Assembly: GCF_018977255.1 (NCBI RefSeq)
Contig: NW_024704742.1
Coordinates: forward strand, 24,740,001 to 24,804,000
Source: Callorhinchus milii
Taxonomy: Eukaryota
DNA: 64,000 bases
Direction: 5' to 3'
The translations under genes were made by a program, and so were the position numbers. The notes beneath the pieces are model-generated. The model did no database searches. It was not told the DNA's origin and saw only the letters and a list, made by a program, of their open reading frames with translations. The stretch's first letter is position 1. Every line of letters starts with the position of its first letter. Of this stretch, positions 1 to 45,740 are shown one piece after another.

Positions 1-320
1 TCTTATAATAATAATAATCCTTGCATTTGATATAGAGATTTCACGTCTTCTAGATGTCACAAAGCGCTTCACAGAATGTACTGTAAAGTGAATTGACTGT
101 ATATTTGTGGAAGAAACGCGGCAGCGAATTGCGCACAGCAGTGTCCCACAAACAGTCGTGGATTGAAGTGACTAATTTTATTATTGTTCTTTATTTTCTT
201 GAGGGATTATTATCAGGAGTGTGGAGTAAGGAAACTTGCCCGAGGTTTCACCCTGCTGGGAATTGAACCCAGGTCTCTTGCTTGCGAGGCAAGCGCTCTA
301 AACACTGAGCTACAGGACTC
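1..320 (-). mobile_element. tRNA-headed SINE with Deu-like body and L2-type tail
   Basis: Minus strand: gagtcctgtagctcagtg (A box), gggttcaattccc (B box), gctgtgcgcaattcgctgccgcgtttc core, atcaaatgcaagg(att)n. Confidence 0.88.
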
Positions 321-13159: not shown

Positions 13160-13482
13160 AGTCCTGTAGCTCAGTGGTTAGAGCACTCGCTTTGCAAGTG
13201 AGAGACCTGAGTTCAATTCCAGGCAGAGGGCGAAACCTTGGGCAAGTTTCCTTACTCCACACAGAGCTTAATCATAATCCCTCCAAAACCAAAAACAATA
13301 ATAAATTGGTAATTTTCAATCTACGACTGTTTGTGGGACATTGCTGTGCGCAATTGTCTGCTGCGTTCGCCCACAAATATACAGTCAATTCACTTTACAG
13401 TGTGTTCTGTGAAGCGCTTTGGGACGTCCTCCCAACATGAAAAGCGCTATATCAAATGCAAAGATTATTATTATTATTATTA
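13160..13482 (+). mobile_element. Full-length SINE of the same family, nested in an older copy (13040-13159 and 13483-13560)
   Basis: tRNA-Ala-like head (tagctcagtgg, TGC loop, gagttcaattcc), body, tail and (TTA)n; flanked by partial body upstream and a second tail downstream. Confidence 0.9.
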
Positions 13483-14267: not shown

Positions 14268-14570
14268 TAATAATAATAATAATAATCCTTGCATTTGATA
14301 TAGCACTTTTCACATCGTCTAGGTGTCTCAAAGTGCTTCACAGAATATGCTGTAAAGTGAATTGACTGTATATTTGTGGACGAAATGCGACAGCTACGGC
14401 AGTGTCCCACAAACAGTCGTCGATTGAAGTGACCAATTTTATTATTGTTCTTGATTATTATCAGGCGTGTGGAGTAAGAAAACTTGCCCAAGGTTTTGCC
14501 CTGCCAGAAATCAAACCCAGGTCTCTCGCTTGCAAGGTGAGTGCTCTAACCACTGAGCTACAGGAGTCCC
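14268..14570 (-). mobile_element. Full-length SINE, same family, inverted relative to the 13160 copy
   Basis: Reverse complement of head, body and (TTA)n tail. Confidence 0.88.
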
Positions 14571-25281: not shown

Positions 25282-25585
25282 GGTAAGTCATTTGATCTTC
25301 ACTTTTAGTGTAATTACAGACTGTGAAAGTGGGGCTTTACGATGCTTCTGGCTGTTTGGGTTTTAAGCAGGAGGTGTCAGGAAAACTACATCAGGGATAA
25401 CCGGCTTTTGACGGCCAAGTGTTCACAACAATGTTGCTTTGTGATCCTTCAAATGTAAGCTCTTCCTATAATTGTGAAGCAGAATTCACCAAGTGTTGCA
25501 TTGTTCGTTCACTGACAGAAAGCAAGCAGGGGTTAGCCTGTCATGAGACAGGTTAGGTTTATTCTACTGATGATGTGTTGTAGCA
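25282..25585 (+). pseudogene. Decayed 28S rRNA fragment (domain V, peptidyl-transferase region)
   Basis: tttgggttttaagcaggaggtgtcag, cagggataac, gctcttcctataattgtgaagcagaattcaccaag, tgagacaggttag, ctactgatgatgtgttgt occur in the order known for vertebrate 28S, with many substitutions. Confidence 0.9.
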
Positions 25586-30400: not shown

Positions 30401-31788
30401 GGGGCATGAACAGTAAACTGGAGTTAGAAGAACAGAGGGTTTAAACTGGATACAGGATTAGAAATGTTTACATAAATAGAGTGAAAATGTATATGGGTTT
30501 GAAAATGAGGATATGTGTCTTTAGAAACTGATCTGATGAGTGATAGGCAGCTATTGAAGCCTGGAAAGGAGAGATTGTGGATAGTGCTGGGTTGTGCTGG
30601 ATCTTGTGCCTATAAAAGCTTGAGCCATGACATTCTAGTTCAGGACACTGTGAAGATGATGAAGGGTCAAGTCAGGGAAATCAGAGAAATAATCTATTGT
30701 AGAAGTAAAGTGTTTCTACAGTGATGTGGAAAAGTAGGAACATGAATGAGTAGTGTGCCAGATGTGGAAGAAGAAAGTACAGTAAAACTCACATAAGTCT
30801 GATCTGAATAAATTGGATAATTGCCTGAGAGAAAGTCATACATCTGACCAAGTCCTGTTCAAGAGTTTATATTCTACCAAGTTTGGCATAACTTATACTT
30901 TGCATAATTCATATTAAATGTATGATCTCAACTGATACGACTCATGTACGGTTTACTGTACCAGTGAATCAATAGATGTGGATTTGAAACTCAGATCAAG
31001 GTTAGATAAAACACCAAGGTTTGTTCAATGCTGAGCAGAGATTCAAACCCACATCTGAGAACTACTGGGTTCAGCCTGAATAGGTAAAGAGAGTGCTGAT
31101 ATGAAGCTCTAAAACGTGAAAGCTTAATCAGGACTTGGTGTCAGACTGGCCGGCAATAAGATAGAACATCAACAGACCTGGTACCGAGGGTAGCAACAGA
31201 GAGATTATAGTTGTGTTTGTCAAATATACATGTGGAAGGTGTAGATGAAGAATAGCTGAGGAATCGGAGGGAACCAAGCATAAAATTCTGGGATTGCTTC
31301 AGATTGAGAAACTTTAATATTTCATATTAAAATCTTAGGTGGCTTTCCCAAACTCAATTTTTAATAGAATTGTGGTTCTCTTTAAATCTAAAGAATATTA
31401 TAATTGCCTGCTATAATCAGTTTTGAGCTGAAATAGGGGCTTTGAATGGACATTTTAATGATTACAATAGAATCCTGTAATAAGATGGTGGGGTAAGTGA
31501 GGTAAGGATGGGGGGTGGGTGGGGGGATTCCTTAAAATTCCAGCCTGCTTTATAATAGGGCGGCCGGTCATTGCTTCTACAGAGTGATCACATATCTGGT
31601 CATGTCATGGTGCCTGTGTATAGAAAGCCATCTGGCTCTTTCAGCACGTAGCTCTTCAAGTCAAATCATCGCACATTTTGAAGCACCACAAACATTATTT
31701 GAAGCGTGATGCTGCCTGCTCACTTTCAGCACACATTTATAATTTCTCAGAATGTAAATGGTGGGTTCCACAACCCTATAAGAAAAGC

Positions 31789-32006
31789 AGACATCGCTGA
31801 GAACCATCAGCACGTCAGGCAGCATCTATGGAGAAAGCAAAGTGAGTCAACATTTCAGGTCCACGACCCTTCGTTAGAACAGGGTCGTGGACCTGAAACG
31901 TTGACTCACTTTCCTTTCTCCATAGATGCTGCCTGACCTGCTGAGTGTTCCCAACGACTTCTGTTTTTGTTTCAGATTTCCAGCATCTGCAGTATTTTGC
32001 GTTTTG
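31789..32006. mobile_element. Shorter fold-back copy of the same element
   Basis: Arms about 31807-31870 and 31881-31945 around a 10-nt loop; flanks cctataagaaaagc / cctgtaggaaaagc. Confidence 0.78.
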
Positions 32007-34993: not shown

Positions 34994-35215
34994 CAAAAAT
35001 TGGCGGGAGGAGCTCAGGTTAGGCTGTGGTCGCCGGGCACACTGTATCCACAGTAGCAGTGTTGAAGAAACGGCGTGAGAAGCCCGAGGACTAGCGCACT
35101 GTGTACTGTACAGGTTAGTAACGGAGGGCGGGTATTTGTACCGCGTTTGTACCGGAGGAGGACACTGTAGCGACCGCAATCAATGACCGTTGGCCTGAAC
35201 AGTGAGGAGCCTGGT
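34994..35215 (-). promoter_or_regulatory. Small CpG-rich promoter-like segment with candidate first exon
   Basis: About 15 CpG in about 200 bp of CpG-poor DNA, GC box gggcggg near 35126, consensus donor G|GTAAGT at 34994/34993 on minus strand. Confidence 0.5.
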
Positions 35216-35245
35216 TTACTGAAGCAGACAGACTATCTTTTAACA

Positions 35246-35720
35246 AAATGGAAAATACTGCAGATGCTGAAAATCTGAAAATCCCAAACAAAAGTTGCTG
35301 GGAACACTCAGCAGGTCAGACAGCATCTATGGAGAAAGGAAAGTGAGTCAACGTTTTGGATCTACGACCCTTCACAAGAACTGCGGCATGTTGGAAGGGA
35401 GAGGCTTGTAAGCACCAACAGAGAGGGGGGAGGTAGGGAAGGAAGGAAGACAAAGGAGAAATGGGGTATAGGACGGGATGTTGGGTTAAAGACCTTGAAG
35501 ATTATTAATACCTCTTTAACCCATCATCCCCTGTCCTCTACCCCATTTTCTCCATTGTCTTCCTTGCCTCCCCCCTCACTGTTAGCCCTTAAAAGCCTCC
35601 CAACATGCCCCAGTTCTGACGAAGGGTCGTAGATTCGAAACGTTGACTTCACTTTCCTTTTTCCATAGATGCTGCCTGACCTGCTGAGTGTTCCCAGCGA
35701 CTTCTGTTTTTGTTTTCAGC
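35246..35720. mobile_element. Fold-back non-autonomous element, probably derived from Penelope-like pseudo-LTR
   Basis: Inverted arms about 35251-35492 and 35513-35719 around a 20-nt loop; perfect 13-bp flanking direct repeat ctatcttttaaca (35233-35245, 35721-35733); hammerhead core in arm. Confidence 0.8.
35612..35648 (+). ncRNA. Minimal type I hammerhead ribozyme motif
   Basis: AGUU-CUGACGA-A-GGGUC(GUA)GAUUC-GAAA-C-GUU^GACU; palindromic AACGUU in place of stem III. Confidence 0.65.
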
Positions 35721-37094
35721 CTATCTTTTAACATTGACAATAAAAGAGACTGTGAAAATGTGCCTGCAATTGTGAGGTGGCTGGATTACTGAGGTGACCC
35801 AAACCAGGTTTCTACTATATACATGGTTTCAAGGAGAAACTGGATAAAACATATCGAGTTTTTCTTTGTTTGCCTTCTATTTGTTCAGTTTTAAGCTGTA
35901 TTTATTTACTCATTTAAGCAATCCGAGATGCAACCCTACGTGAAGGACGCTATGTAAATGTGTCCTTCACGCATTTTACAAAACCGCATGCCTTGCTATC
36001 ACTTCCTTCCCCTGCCTTCAAAATCTATCCAAAAGCACTGCTATTGAGATTTTGGTCAATGTCTCTAAAAATATCCTTTTCTTTTTCTATTCCCACCATT
36101 GTCAGTCGCTTTGAGATGTCAGTTGTTGTACTTGATATATTTTATATGCTATGAAGCAATGCCAATGCACCAACATTGAACAAGCACAATCGTCGCCAGA
36201 AGTAATCCATCCAACAACATTTTACCGTATTGCCTTTAGATGGACTTAATCTATGACAGCTGCCTGTATTACAAAAAGGTCATATTACACTTGATGTGTG
36301 TTGCCACGGGCACAATATTAAGCATTTCCAATGCTGACTGTGTGGAACAACTGTGGCTTTGCCAAGAATTTTAGAATAGATCCATTTTCTGCACAGCACA
36401 GTTGGATTTGCACCATCATATGCTTTTAGGTTATTTAACAACTCATTCCAGCTGTTGAAACATGTTACTTACTAATTGATAATACTCCATGAATGCCCAT
36501 TAGCTATTTTTTCAGTGTAAAATTTAACGCCAAGGTCTTTCAAATTAACACGAAGTGTAACAGCCACTAAAAACACAGGTGACATCAAGAAAAACACTGC
36601 CTTGTACATACAATCTCTTTACTGCAGGCATTTGACATGCAACAGATATATTTTGTGATAACAAGCTGGTTTTTATATTTGTTTTCATCTAAACTGACAT
36701 CTCAAAGCGACAGACAACGGTGGGAACAGAAAAAGAATAGGATTTTTAAAGACATTAAGAAGGGTGGGAGACCAAAATCGCAATATTAGGAATGTACTTT
36801 TGGATAGATATTGAAGGCACGGGAAGTGGTAGCAAGGCATGTGGTTTTGTAAAAGATTTTCATAGGACAATGGCATGGTGTCTGAAAGCTCAGACATTAA
36901 TGGTGGAGCGGAAGGAGTGAGGAGCAATTAGCAGAACGGTTTCAGAAGAGTGGAGTCTATGGACCAGAAAAGAGAGCTAGGAGAGAATGCATTGTTAGGG
37001 TGGGGACAGAACATGGAGAAACAAATTGATCAGCTGAGGAGCTGCCAAGTTTCAATTGCAAATAAGAATTTACTTGAGGATACTACAGAAACGA

Positions 37095-44415: not shown

Positions 44416-45572
44416 CTGAAAAGCACAAATAAATTAGACAAAACTCATTCCAATTATGCTAATATGTTGATAGTAAAGGCATACCATTATATTGTAAAGT
44501 AATTTAATAACATGTTGTTGAAGTAATGTATAGTGTTCTGTTGCTGCAAGTTACAAAATAGAAAATTGTGCATTTGTTGTATATCATCTCTTAACACTGG
44601 TCTAATTTTCAGATTGAGTAAAACATGTGTAACCATGTGTACAGAGTCACTACTCTCTAGTGAAGCTCTTTCACACATTCTCCTGATGTGAAAGGTGCTA
44701 TGTCAAATGATTATTATTAATAATAATTACATATGTTCTCATAACTATGCAGTTAATCCATGAAAAATGTTTTACAGAATCAACTGGAATCATTTTTATT
44801 GATAGGTACATAATTAAGAACATCTGCTATCCCCTCTTTACTTGTGTTTACACAGATAGCATAAACCGCAAATCAGACCCTCTAATAGCTGTTCTTATGC
44901 ATTTTGTCAGGAGTCTATTCCCACTCCTTTGCTGTAACATGTAAACACTAGTTAACTCTGGCAGCGATAGCTTGACAGTATTTTACTATATGCAGATACT
45001 ACCCTGGGATGGATATGTTTTATTGTTACTTCGAGACTGTGAAAGACCAAACTCATTACATTACCACTACAGAAAGAAGGGATTTCTCTCTAACAAATTG
45101 TTAGAAATGTAACTGATGCTATATTCTAATTATTTTATAGGACAAGGTAATCCTAGATTTGATATAAATTCTGAGTTTGTTTCACTGTGTTAAAATTGAG
45201 CATTGTTTAACATGATTGTGCTTTTTTAAATTTATTTTAAGTGCCTTGACAAAATAGTTTTTTTTACGCCAAAGACATTCTCCTAATAATGTATTTTACA
45301 TTCTTTCTGTATGTCCATCTAAAGTCATAAGAGTATGTGCAATTGCAATCCATTTTTGGTCCTTTTTTTTAAAATGAATGGTAATTGACTACTTTAATAT
45401 GTTCCAAACATATGTCCTCATTTGGGTATATACAAGCAGTTATATTTGTTGCTTTTAAACAATAATCATAACGACAATATTCTGCTCGCTACAGAACTGC
45501 TACATAAACATCAAATGATTACCTAAGCATTCTGCTTTTTAAAATATTTTCAATGATCAACTAGCAAAACAT

Positions 45573-45740
45573 AACACAAAATACTGCAGATGCTGGAAAT
45601 CTGAAAACTAAAACAGAAGTCGCTGGGAACACTCAGCGGTTCTGACGAAGGGTTGTGGATCCAAAACGTTGACTCACTTTCCTTTCTCCATAGATGCTGC
45701 CTGACCTGCTGAGTGTTCCCAGCAACTTCTGTTTTTGTTT
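45573..45740. mobile_element. Shortest fold-back copy, in dchs2 intron
   Basis: Same termini; CTGACGA at 45642-45648 with GAAA changed to AAAA; flanks tcaactagcaaaacat / tcaactggcaaaacat. Confidence 0.78.

What the first reader, a model, noticed from the sequence alone, without database searches (positions are those of the whole stretch)
35233..35733. Fold-back retroelement with an intact hammerhead ribozyme core and a perfect 13-bp target-site duplication
Seen: a 475-bp insert of two inverted arms of over 200 bp around a 20-nt loop, bounded by ctatcttttaaca on both sides, with no ORF. The right arm reads AGUU-CUGACGA-A-GGGUC(GUA)GAUUC-GAAA-C-GUU-GACU, which gives both catalytic boxes, stem II, a 4-bp stem I and a self-complementary AACGUU replacing stem III. 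The left-arm counterpart is broken (CUUGUGA, AAAA). Known: Penelope-like elements carry minimal type I hammerheads with palindromic stem III in their pseudo-LTRs, thought to cleave as dimers, and often insert with inverted segments. Inference: a non-autonomous ribozyme-bearing hairpin retroelement mobilised in trans.
Basis: partly seen in the sequence, partly recalled or inferred. Interest (0 to 1): 0.78.

Follow-up and report, generated by a model that had tools for sequence, protein, structure and literature searches.

The report
Inverted double fragment of Penelope-like retroelement
This is a decayed, head-to-head double copy of the tail end of a very common Penelope-like jumping gene, carrying that family's usual small hammerhead-ribozyme motif; it is an ordinary, already described kind of insertion rather than a new hairpin element.

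Summary
A 471-bp insert (35246-35716) made of two inverted arms lies between direct repeats. Three uninterrupted paralogs of the host repeat show the target-site duplication is 17 bp (16/17), not 13.

The arms are 5'-truncated copies of the 3' non-coding end of an autonomous Penelope-like element (PLE). Longer copies run upstream into an ORF that is 43% identical to ~900-aa proteins carrying RT plus a C-terminal GIY-YIG domain.

The locus shows the published PLE insertion signatures:
- variable 5' truncation;
- an adjacent inverted 5'-truncated copy;
- an optional ~34-nt "tail", here on one arm only;
- target-site duplications of variable length (11-17 bp).

The hammerhead motif matches the PLE "minimal HHR" type. 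Its 32-nt family form occurs 2291 times in the genome (control 0). Two subfamilies differ by a compensatory G-C to A-U change in stem II. Rfam finds no hammerhead.

In this copy stem II is crippled (-0.4 versus -5.8 kcal/mol), the left-arm motif is broken, and a full transcript would bury the motif in a -309 kcal/mol hairpin.

The PLE link is supported. A self-propagating hairpin element is not: the only other fold-back with both arms complete has a different junction and the tail on the opposite arm. Unexplained: the arms differ in divergence (3.0% versus 10.5%).

The parts
35229..35245 (.). left copy of the 17-bp target-site duplication (CAGaCTATCTTTTAACA)
   Evidence: 16/17 direct repeat. 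Three uninterrupted paralogs of the host repeat carry a single CAGCCTATCTTTTAACA.
35246..35278 (-). optional PLE 'tail' (about 33-34 nt) at the outer end of the left arm; the right arm has no counterpart
   Evidence: The left arm maps to ref 655-900 and the right arm to ref 643-866 of a family copy. Family copies end either at about ref 866 or about ref 900.
35246..35492 (-). left arm: inverted, 5'-truncated copy of the PLE 3' non-coding end; 22/210 substitutions (10.5%) from the family majority
35346..35382 (-). broken hammerhead-like motif of the left arm (CTTGTGA instead of CTGACGA; CAAAAC instead of CGAAAC)
   Evidence: sequence; alignment to the family majority
35493..35500 (.). 8-nt filler (CCTTGAAG) between the two arms, not matched to the family
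   Evidence: fillers of 0-31 nt occur in other composites
35501..35716 (+). right arm: direct, 5'-truncated copy of the PLE 3' non-coding end, ending at the tail-less 3' end; 6/202 substitutions (3.0%) from the family majority
35612..35648 (+). PLE-type minimal hammerhead motif. Helix I 5' strand 35612-15; CTGACGA 35616-22; extra A 35623; stem II 35624-28 / 35632-36; loop 35629-31; GAAA 35637-40; palindromic CG 35641-42; U16.1 35643; H17 35644 (predicted cleavage after it); helix I 3' strand 35645-48
   Evidence: Sequence. Family motif counts. Stem II -0.4 kcal/mol here against -5.8 in a family copy. No Rfam hit.
35717..35733 (.). right copy of the 17-bp target-site duplication (CAGCCTATCTTTTAACA)

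Best explanation
The insert is a dead-on-arrival product of one integration event of an autonomous, endonuclease-bearing Penelope-like element (PLE).

Shown:
- Both arms are 5'-truncated copies of the PLE's 3' non-coding end, the region downstream of the RT/GIY-YIG ORF that carries the family's minimal hammerhead motif.
- The arms lie head to head inside a single 17-bp target-site duplication.
- One arm starts at the distal 3' end (with the ~34-nt 'tail') and the other at the proximal, tail-less 3' end.

Inferred, from the published in vitro behaviour of a Poseidon PLE, which cuts and extends both target strands and starts reverse transcription at two adjacent internal sites:
- The GIY-YIG nuclease cut the two strands 17 bp apart.
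- Each 3'-OH primed a cDNA, one from each start site.
- Both cDNAs stopped early, at family positions about 655 and 643.
- Their ends were joined through 8 nt of filler.

The hammerhead motif is a passenger. In source elements it is conserved and probably helps to process PLE RNA, as a dimer or with protein help. In this copy it has no second sense copy to pair with, has a weakened stem II, and would be buried in a ~210-bp hairpin if the insert were transcribed. The locus has since decayed neutrally.
For: 1) PLE identity.
- Copies extend upstream of the arm sequence by variable lengths into an ORF end with C-x2-C ... YIGET/S ... AEHLRSV ... HFNS.SHS ... LGT.QP.
- A 470-aa frame (P0001) is 43% identical over 417 aa (E 3e-117) to P0007. 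[quoted passage not shown]
- 28 relatives of 827-1130 aa were found.

2) Abundance.
- 5161 first-look candidates for the insert.
- 916 candidates for an 87-aa ORF piece.
- 2291 hits to the 32-nt motif with up to 2 mismatches, control 0.

3) Single event.
- A 17-bp TSD flanks the whole composite.
- Three paralogs of the host repeat show the empty site.

4) PLE signatures.
- Two 3' end types, about ref 866 and about ref 900: 25 and 26 of 64 unpaired copies, 13 unclassifiable.
- 24 head-to-head rows (22 distinct loci) and five more, including two others inside this window.
- TSDs of 11, 11, 14, 15 and 17 bp.
- Of 17 composites with both outer ends classifiable (16 distinct), 16 (15) carry the tail on exactly one arm, 1 on neither and 0 on both; binomial P = 1.4e-4 against the monomer frequency.
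[quoted passage not shown] 2021, and two RT start sites with both strands cut and extended in Frangieh et al. 2024.

5) Hammerhead.
- The features match the min-HHR definition.
- Stem II pair 10.1-11.1 genome-wide: G..C/T 1009 (22 of the first 100 listed are G..T, hand count), A..T 350, A..C 43.
- Subfamily B also turns G1.1-U2.1 into A-U, with all core letters kept.

6) The two arms share two derived states (GTG>GTA, GACCC>GAT..), against a mean of 0.3 shared between random family pairs.
Against: - The arms are unequally diverged from the family majority: 6/202 versus 22/210 substitutions, about 4 versus 20 private changes. Simultaneous origin does not predict this. No genomic copy resembles the left arm better than 86-88%.
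- No full-length element or tandem pLTR-ORF-pLTR arrangement was recovered; the best copies start at aa 108 and 166 of a relative. So the motif's placement in a true pseudo-LTR is inferred.
- Pfam gave no significant hit on the window genome's own degenerate ORF pieces; the best was GIY-YIG at E 0.0094, below cut-off.
- Rfam hammerhead models do not hit.
- No cleavage or expression data exist.
- The loci examined were gathered by similarity searches that score only the best candidates, so frequencies are not a census.
Confidence: 0.85

Rival explanations
1. One reading: a non-autonomous fold-back retroelement, a hairpin unit with one working hammerhead, that is transcribed and copied as a unit by PLE proteins in trans.
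For: - A second fold-back of almost the same size exists at C53:88783-89245, with different flanks and its own TSD of 12-15 bp.
- A short subfamily (B) is found mostly as head-to-head pairs: 7 of 11 distinct loci.
- Mobilisation of short PLE-derived RNAs in trans is plausible (retrozyme preprint, abstract).
Against: - Among the 40 best-scored of 5161 candidates only C53 covers the whole insert.
- A junction-spanning query found full cover only at C53 and 133/151 nt at one further locus.
- C53 differs in its inner ends (654/647 versus 655/643) and its filler (12 nt versus 8 nt, different letters), and carries the tail on the opposite arm relative to the longer arm.
- The outer ends of both arms coincide with the family's two regular 3' ends. 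That is expected if each arm was primed separately, not if one hairpin RNA was copied from its 3' end.
- Inner ends vary freely among composites.
Confidence: 0.05
2. Two separate events: an older inverted PLE fragment (the left arm) was later joined by a younger fragment (the right arm) that inserted exactly at its inner end.
For: - Divergence from the family majority is 10.5% for the left arm and 3.0% for the right. The 26 sampled family copies range from 1.0 to 4.7%.
- PLE nucleases are reported to cut within their own sequences as well as elsewhere (Frangieh et al. 2024).
Against: - One 17-bp duplication brackets the pair, and no copy of it lies between the arms.
- The second insertion would need a nick exactly at the old junction and no TSD of its own, whereas the measured TSDs are 11-17 bp.
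- The arms share two derived states.
- Head-to-head pairs with the tail on exactly one arm are a regular product in this family.
Confidence: 0.07
3. A fold-back DNA transposon or MITE with long terminal inverted repeats, moved by a DDE transposase.
For: Long inverted arms, small size, no ORF and flanking direct repeats.
Against: - The ends are not symmetric; 33-34 nt are present on one side only.
- TSD length varies from 11 to 17 bp among family insertions.
- Most relatives are single, variably 5'-truncated copies continuous with an RT/GIY-YIG ORF.
- No transposase was met.
Confidence: 0.01
4. A hairpin-RNA or microRNA-like gene: the long inverted repeat is transcribed and diced.
For: A very stable hairpin. 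Weak Rfam matches to plant and animal miRNA precursor models; the best is MIR1858 at 61 bits.
Against: - All matches lie far below the gathering scores (61 versus 137 bits) and fall on both strands, as expected for any long hairpin.
- The sequence is a decaying repeat copy.
- Small-RNA production was not tested.
Confidence: 0.02

Closest known systems
Canonical EN+ Penelope-like elements (Penelope/Poseidon/Neptune-type) and their typical complex insertions (Craig et al. 2021, passages read; Evgen'ev & Arkhipova 2005 and Arkhipova 2006 only as cited there)
   Same: RT plus C-terminal GIY-YIG ORF relatives; heavy 5' truncation; an inverted 5'-truncated copy abutting the 5' end; a 30-40-bp tail at one end only; variable TSD; a hammerhead motif in the non-coding repeat region.
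   Different: Nothing essential. Here both copies are so truncated that no ORF is left, and no tandem pLTR arrangement was recovered in this genome with the access I had.
Minimal hammerhead motifs of metazoan PLEs (Cervera & de la Pena 2014, PMC4209133, parts 1-2 of 4 read)
   Same: CUGANGA and GAAA boxes; an unpaired nucleotide between A9 and 10.1; the G10.1-C11.1 pair; helix III reduced to palindromic positions (ACGU) that can pair only between two copies; a 4-bp helix I; thousands of scattered, mostly single copies; pairs on opposite strands 100-700 bp apart.
   Different: Stem II is 5 bp, against the 7-8 bp reported for Schistosoma and 6 bp for D. virilis. One subfamily here has A10.1-U11.1. 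Activity is untested.
Poseidon element of the green anole studied in vitro (Frangieh et al. 2024, PMC11167929, parts 1-2 of 4 read)
   Same: Two adjacent internal RT start sites that explain the optional tail. Both target strands are cut and extended. The hammerhead lies a short distance upstream of the RT start sites: about 72 and 106 nt here, and about 85-92 nt to the mapped site there.
   Different: That work is biochemical. Here there are only genomic footprints. In the composites I sampled, the two arms use different start sites (16 of 17), which that paper does not state.
Non-LTR retrozymes of animals (Cervera & de la Pena 2020, listing only; bioRxiv 10.64898/2026.07.22.740005, abstract and passages)
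   Same: Short non-coding units with type I hammerheads, derived from PLE repeat regions and lacking coding capacity.
   Different: Retrozymes are head-to-tail tandem repeats thought to yield circular RNAs. This locus is a single head-to-head pair, so no two hammerheads lie on one strand.
Twin-priming inversions of LINE-1 (recalled from memory; no paper seen)
   Same: Both target-strand 3' ends prime cDNA, giving an inverted 5' part within one TSD.
   Different: In twin priming the two segments are different, adjoining parts of one RNA. Here both arms cover the same 3' region and each begins at a regular 3' start site.

Membership tests
Penelope-like element (EN+), 5'-truncated insertion | The repeat is continuous with a single ORF encoding RT followed by a C-terminal GIY-YIG nuclease | tested here: met
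   Upstream extension of copies runs into the ORF end. P0001 is 43% identical over 417 aa to P0007, which passes the Pfam cut-offs for RVT_1 and GIY-YIG. The genome's own degenerate pieces alone do not pass Pfam.
Penelope-like element (EN+), 5'-truncated insertion | [quoted passage not shown] 2021 | tested here: met
   The translation reads VVYCIHCSRCGPLYIGES...AEHL...HFNSHSH. This was read by eye; there was no profile test.
Penelope-like element (EN+), 5'-truncated insertion | Variable 5' truncation of copies | tested here: met
   Coverage of shared sequence falls off gradually upstream among 26 loci. Arm inner ends range from ref 301 to 859.
Penelope-like element (EN+), 5'-truncated insertion | [quoted passage not shown] | tested here: met
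   About 34 nt. Unpaired copies: 26 with, 25 without, 13 unclassifiable, of 64. Composites: exactly one tail in 16 of 17. In the window, the left arm only.
Penelope-like element (EN+), 5'-truncated insertion | An inverted 5'-truncated copy adjacent to the 5' end | tested here: met
   Window 35246-35492 against 35501-35716; 24 rows; 5 more.
Penelope-like element (EN+), 5'-truncated insertion | Target-site duplication of variable length | tested here: met
   17 bp here, with the empty site seen in 3 paralogs. 11, 11 and 14 bp and 15 bp elsewhere.
Penelope-like element (EN+), 5'-truncated insertion | Pseudo-LTRs: the same repeat on both sides of the ORF (partial tandem) | tested here: inconclusive
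   No copy reaching the ORF start was found. The best start at aa 108 and 166 of P0002.
Hammerhead ribozyme, PLE minimal type | Conserved core boxes CUGANGA and GAAA with H17 | tested here: met
   Right arm 35616-22 and 35637-40, with U at position 17. Family: 2291 hits to the 32-mer, control 0.
Hammerhead ribozyme, PLE minimal type | Stem II supported by covariation; 10.1-11.1 pair | tested here: met
   G..Y 1009, A..T 350, A..C 43 genome-wide. This is one compensatory event between two subfamilies, not many independent ones.
Hammerhead ribozyme, PLE minimal type | Extra nucleotide between A9 and 10.1; palindromic 15.2-16.2; short helix I | tested here: met
   A at 35623; ACGT at 35640-43; AGTT/GACT. 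Criteria taken.
Hammerhead ribozyme, PLE minimal type | Match to a curated hammerhead covariance model (Rfam) | tested here: not met
   No hammerhead family among 45 matches at E<=10 in 35000-36000, and none at gathering score in the window. The minimal type lacks a closed helix III, which may explain the miss.
Hammerhead ribozyme, PLE minimal type | Self-cleavage after H17 | not testable with these tools
   No assay is possible. The published minimal motifs cleave poorly and only as dimers or with protein.
Non-LTR retrozyme | Head-to-tail tandem repeats, each with a hammerhead on the same strand | tested here: not met
   The two copies are inverted, so only one sense motif lies on each strand.
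Fold-back / MITE DNA transposon | Symmetric terminal inverted repeats, TSD of fixed length, link to a DDE transposase | tested here: not met
   Asymmetric ends; TSDs of 11-17 bp; ORF link is to RT/GIY-YIG.

The most novel reading that the evidence does not exclude
The genomic footprints in this genome constrain how PLEs integrate more tightly than the literature I read states.

- In head-to-head composites the two cDNAs almost always start at the two different RT start sites: tail on exactly one arm in 16 of 17, never on both.
- This suggests two primers, one per target strand, loading in tandem on the two adjacent sites of one RNP, rather than choosing sites independently.
- A short RNA that begins 1-4 nt before CUGANGA, at the very start of helix I and just after a splice-acceptor-like CCCCAG, seems to be a preferred template. 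It has spawned a SINE-like subfamily of about 100-140 nt with a compensated A-U stem II pair.

If real, the hammerhead would sit at the extreme 5' end of the mobilised RNA. That would hint at a role in defining or protecting that end.
Probability: 0.3. Interest if true: 0.45.

Novelty: already known. Interest (0 to 1): 0.15.

Why it matters
The locus itself matters little. It is one decayed copy among thousands, and its structure, tail, target duplication and ribozyme motif are all textbook features of Penelope-like elements. The value of the check is negative: it removes a seemingly new 'hairpin ribozyme retroelement' from the list.

The family as a whole gives a clean natural data set for PLE integration mechanics, which are still poorly understood:
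- more than 2000 motif copies;
- frequent head-to-head pairs, with the tail on one arm only;
- a compensated stem II variant;
- a sharp 5' end at helix I.

I could not check Repbase or Dfam, so whether this particular family is already catalogued is unknown.

Tried and rejected
- Rfam. An E<=10 scan of 35000-36000 and a gathering-score scan of the window gave no hammerhead, only sub-threshold miRNA-precursor matches caused by the hairpin.
- Pfam on the genome's own ORF pieces: nothing above cut-off.
- PDB sequence search with P0001: no match.
- Search for a full-length element with both repeats: only 5'-truncated copies. One long frame (L043) proved to be a PLE end read through into a LINE-like ORF.
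- Sequencing runs: no RNA holder listed.
- Laid contigs of four runs: swamped by other copies of the repeats, with no usable starts or ends. One contig joint (35245 to 35764, with 18 other letters between) fits a paralogous empty site and led.
- Earlier findings of the scan: none for this genome.
- Source of the left arm: a left-arm-only search found nothing closer than 86-88%.
- The apparent clustering of junctions near ref 650-669 was set aside as ascertainment bias, because those loci had been found with a junction-spanning query.
- A snap-back (self-primed) origin of the second arm was considered. It was rated less likely because the tail is present on one arm only and inner ends are often unequal.
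- The shared CCTTGAAG in the fillers of the window and L074 led only to other repeats.
Full report
**What is there**

The window lies in a eukaryotic genome of 0.99 Gb.

- Two inverted arms: the repeat finder blocks I1-I6 cover 35279-35492 against 35513-35716, with 20 nt between the innermost arms.
- The arms are bracketed by a direct repeat that is exact over 13 nt and 16/17 over 17 nt.
- As RNA the insert folds into one hairpin of -309.2 kcal/mol (z = -26.6).
- There is no ORF beyond one 50-aa ATG frame.

The right flank belongs to another dispersed repeat: 190 first-look candidates, and 39 other hits at 89-95%. Three of its uninterrupted copies read ...CAGACAGCCTATCTTTTAACATTGACAAT.... This sets the boundaries:

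- The duplicated target is the 17-mer CAGCCTATCTTTTAACA.
- The insert is 35246-35716 (471 bp).
- Everything between the repeats arrived at one site.

**What the arms are**

A search of the window's own genome with the insert gave 5161 first-look candidates, of which 40 were scored. Nearly all are single units of about 225 bp that match the right arm at 88-90% and the left arm at 84-87%. Only C53:88783-89245 covers the whole fold-back.

Alignment of 26 such copies with their flanks showed three things:

- The family extends further 5' than the arms.
- The 5' ends vary from copy to copy.
- There are two kinds of 3' end, one about 34 nt longer than the other.

Upstream the copies run into the end of an ORF reading C-x2-C ... 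YIGET ... AEHLRSV ... HFNS.SHS ... LGTLQP. The evidence for its identity:

- A 470-aa frame from another copy (P0001) has 28 relatives of 827-1130 aa.
- It is 43% identical over 417 aa to P0007.
- P0007 passes the Pfam cut-offs for RVT_1 and for a C-terminal GIY-YIG domain.
- The genome's own degenerate pieces do not pass Pfam by themselves, and the PDB holds no sequence relative.

RT followed by GIY-YIG is the architecture of endonuclease-bearing Penelope-like elements (PLEs). I found no full-length copy. The best start at residues 108 and 166 of a relative.

**Anatomy in family coordinates**

I used one real copy as a ruler (L016:859-1775). On it:

| Feature | Position |
|---|---|
| ORF stop | about 460 |
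| Hammerhead motif | about 757-790 |
| Short 3' end | about 866 |
| Long 3' end | about 900 |

The window's arms map as follows:

- The left arm is ref 655-900, inverted.
- The right arm is ref 643-866, direct.
- 8 nt of unmatched filler lie between them.

So both arms are 5'-truncated copies of the same 3' region. They sit head to head, and the extra ~34 nt is on one arm only.

**Comparison with what is published**

Craig et al. 2021 (passages) list as general PLE features:

- heavy 5' truncation;
- a 30-40-bp 'tail' often present at only one end;
- TSDs of variable length;
- hammerhead motifs in the pseudo-LTRs.

Frangieh et al. 2024 (parts 1-2 of 4) showed three things for an anole Poseidon element in vitro. 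Both target strands are cut and extended. Reverse transcription starts at two adjacent internal sites. The sequence between those sites is the tail.

The window locus fits each point, and it is not exceptional here:

- I mapped 24 head-to-head rows (22 distinct loci) and five more.
- Two further ones lie inside this window, at 31780-32006 and 45570-45740.
- Measured TSDs are 11, 11, 14, 15 and 17 bp.
- Among 17 composites whose outer ends could both be classified (16 if a duplicated locus counts once), 16 (15) carry the tail on exactly one arm, one on neither and none on both.
- Unpaired copies split 26 with tail, 25 without, and 13 unclassifiable, of 64.

These loci came from similarity searches, not from a census.

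**The hammerhead**

The right arm reads AGTT CTGACGA A GGGTC GTA GATTC GAAA CGTT GACT (35612-35648). Cervera & de la Pena 2014 (parts 1-2 of 4) define the minimal PLE hammerhead by:

- the two core boxes;
- an unpaired nucleotide between A9 and 10.1;
- the G10.1-C11.1 pair;
- palindromic positions 15.2-16.2 in place of a closed helix III;
- a short helix I.

All are present. They also report pairs of such motifs 100-700 bp apart on opposite strands, and weak cleavage only in dimeric constructs.

At family level:

- The 32-nt form with GGGTC GTG GACCC occurs 2291 times with up to two mismatches (control 0).
- CTGANGA-N14-GAAACNT occurs 3106 times (control 131).
- A second subfamily reads AGGTC ATC GACCT.
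- Genome-wide counts for the 10.1/11.1 pair, with the rest of the stem fixed, are G with C or T 1009 (22 of the first 100 listed have T, hand count), A with T 350, and A with C 43.
- In my hand tally of the first 100 matches the pairs were G-C 44, A-U 33, G-U 19, A-C 1, and other 3.

This is one compensatory change, probably through the CpG-driven G-U intermediate, not many independent ones. The same subfamily turns the G-U pair at the base of helix I into A-U and keeps all core letters.

Against membership, Rfam reports no hammerhead at E<=10.

In this particular copy:

- Two C>T changes reduce stem II to -0.4 kcal/mol, against -5.8 in a family copy.
- The left-arm motif is broken (CTTGTGA, CAAAAC).
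- The two motifs lie on opposite strands, so no dimer can form in one transcript.
- A transcript of the whole insert would pair the motif with the other arm.

**Is the fold-back a mobile unit of its own?**

A 151-nt query across the junction found the following among 40 scored of 1540 candidates: full cover only at C53, and 133 nt at C1:136547692. All other hits stop at the junction.

C53 has its own flanks and a TSD of 12-15 bp. It differs from the window copy in three ways:

- Its inner ends are 654 and 647.
- Its filler is 12 different nucleotides.
- Its tail is on the arm that is tail-less in the window.

In all composites the outer ends coincide with the family's two regular 3' ends, while the inner ends vary. 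This is what separate priming of two cDNAs predicts. It is not what copying of one hairpin RNA predicts. I therefore reject the self-propagating hairpin element for this locus.

The short subfamily B is a different matter. Its units are only about 100-140 nt. All 12 sampled loci begin 1-4 nt before CUGANGA. Seven of 11 distinct loci are head-to-head pairs. It behaves like a SINE-like parasite of the PLE, but even there the outer ends follow the tail/no-tail rule.

**Mechanism, with its status**

Shown:
- one target duplication around two inverted 3' fragments;
- different 3' start points on the two arms;
- filler at the junction;
- a family link to RT/GIY-YIG.

Inferred, from the in vitro work:
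- Staggered nicks were made 17 bp apart.
- Each 3'-OH primed reverse transcription, one at each start site.
- Both cDNAs terminated early.
- Their ends were joined with filler.
- The locus then decayed.

The role of the hammerhead in source elements (processing of multimeric RNA, protein-assisted) is taken from the literature and was not tested here.

**Unexplained**

- The arms differ in divergence from the family majority. The right arm has 6/202 substitutions (3.0%) and the left 22/210 (10.5%). The 26 family copies average 3.3%, and the C53 arms are at 5.2 and 5.6%.
- The arms share two derived states, against 0.3 on average for random family pairs.
- No genomic copy is closer than 86-88% to the left arm.
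- A two-event history would explain the asymmetry. However, it needs a second insertion exactly at the old junction, without a TSD of its own. I give it 0.07.
- The sharp 5' end at helix I, just after a splice-acceptor-like CCCCAG, is also unexplained. Cervera & de la Pena note that the D. virilis Penelope intron ends at the 5' end of helix I.

**Verdict**

This is an ordinary, already described kind of PLE insertion.

Papers not seen and cited from memory or at second hand: Lunse et al. 2017, Ostertag & Kazazian 2001, Evgen'ev & Arkhipova 2005, Arkhipova 2006. Supplementary figures of the papers read were not consulted.

Noticed in passing
window 31780-32006: A second head-to-head PLE mini-composite. 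The inverted arm is ref 765-865 (no tail) and abuts the direct arm, ref 775-900 (with tail), with no filler. The inverted arm ends exactly at the start of helix I.
   Followed up: partly
window 45570-45740: A third head-to-head PLE composite. The inverted arm is ref 834-900 (tail) and the direct arm ref 765-866 (no tail). The 15-bp TSD reads CAACT[A/G]GCAAAACAT.
   Followed up: partly
loci L061-L072 (subfamily B): A short subfamily of the PLE 3' end, about 100-140 nt, with A10.1-U11.1 and loop AUC. All 12 sampled copies begin 1-4 nt before CUGANGA. 7 of 11 distinct loci are head-to-head pairs. It behaves like a SINE-like parasite of the PLE.
   Followed up: partly
window 35060-35245 and 35717-35821: The fold-back sits inside another dispersed repeat: 190 first-look candidates, and 39 other hits at 89-95% to the right flank. 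Three paralogs supplied the empty site.
   Followed up: partly
window 248-319 (-), 13164-13226 (+), 14500-14564 (-): tRNA-model matches (63.6, 40.2 and 40.1 bits). The two weaker ones are partial and look like tRNA-derived SINE heads. A similar head abuts a PLE copy in L019.
   Followed up: no
window 25396-25554: A 159-nt piece matching eukaryotic LSU rRNA positions 2825-2984 (114 bits), isolated from any rDNA. It is either an rRNA-derived fragment or part of a repeat.
   Followed up: no
flanks of L008, L018, L026, L074, L076; also L043, L048, L069-L071: An abundant repeat ending in ...CTTGAAGATGTGATAAGGTGCTATATCAAATGCAAGGATTATTATTATT recurs next to PLE copies. Several PLE insertions lie in its AT-rich ATT-repeat end, in line with the AT-rich target preference reported for PLE nucleases.
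   Followed up: no
L074:653-683 and L036:476-515: The 31-nt filler between the arms of the L074 composite matches a stretch of another repeat seen in L036. Fillers can therefore be captured from other templates.
   Followed up: no
L043:82-2562 (-): An 826-aa open frame that starts in a PLE GIY-YIG end and continues into a LINE-like endonuclease/RT ORF. This is a nested or adjacent insertion, not a PLE ORF.
   Followed up: no
L070 and L071 (C1:10.03 Mb and 10.10 Mb): Two loci 67 kb apart carry the same subfamily-B composite with identical flanks. This is a segmental duplication, so it was counted once.
   Followed up: no
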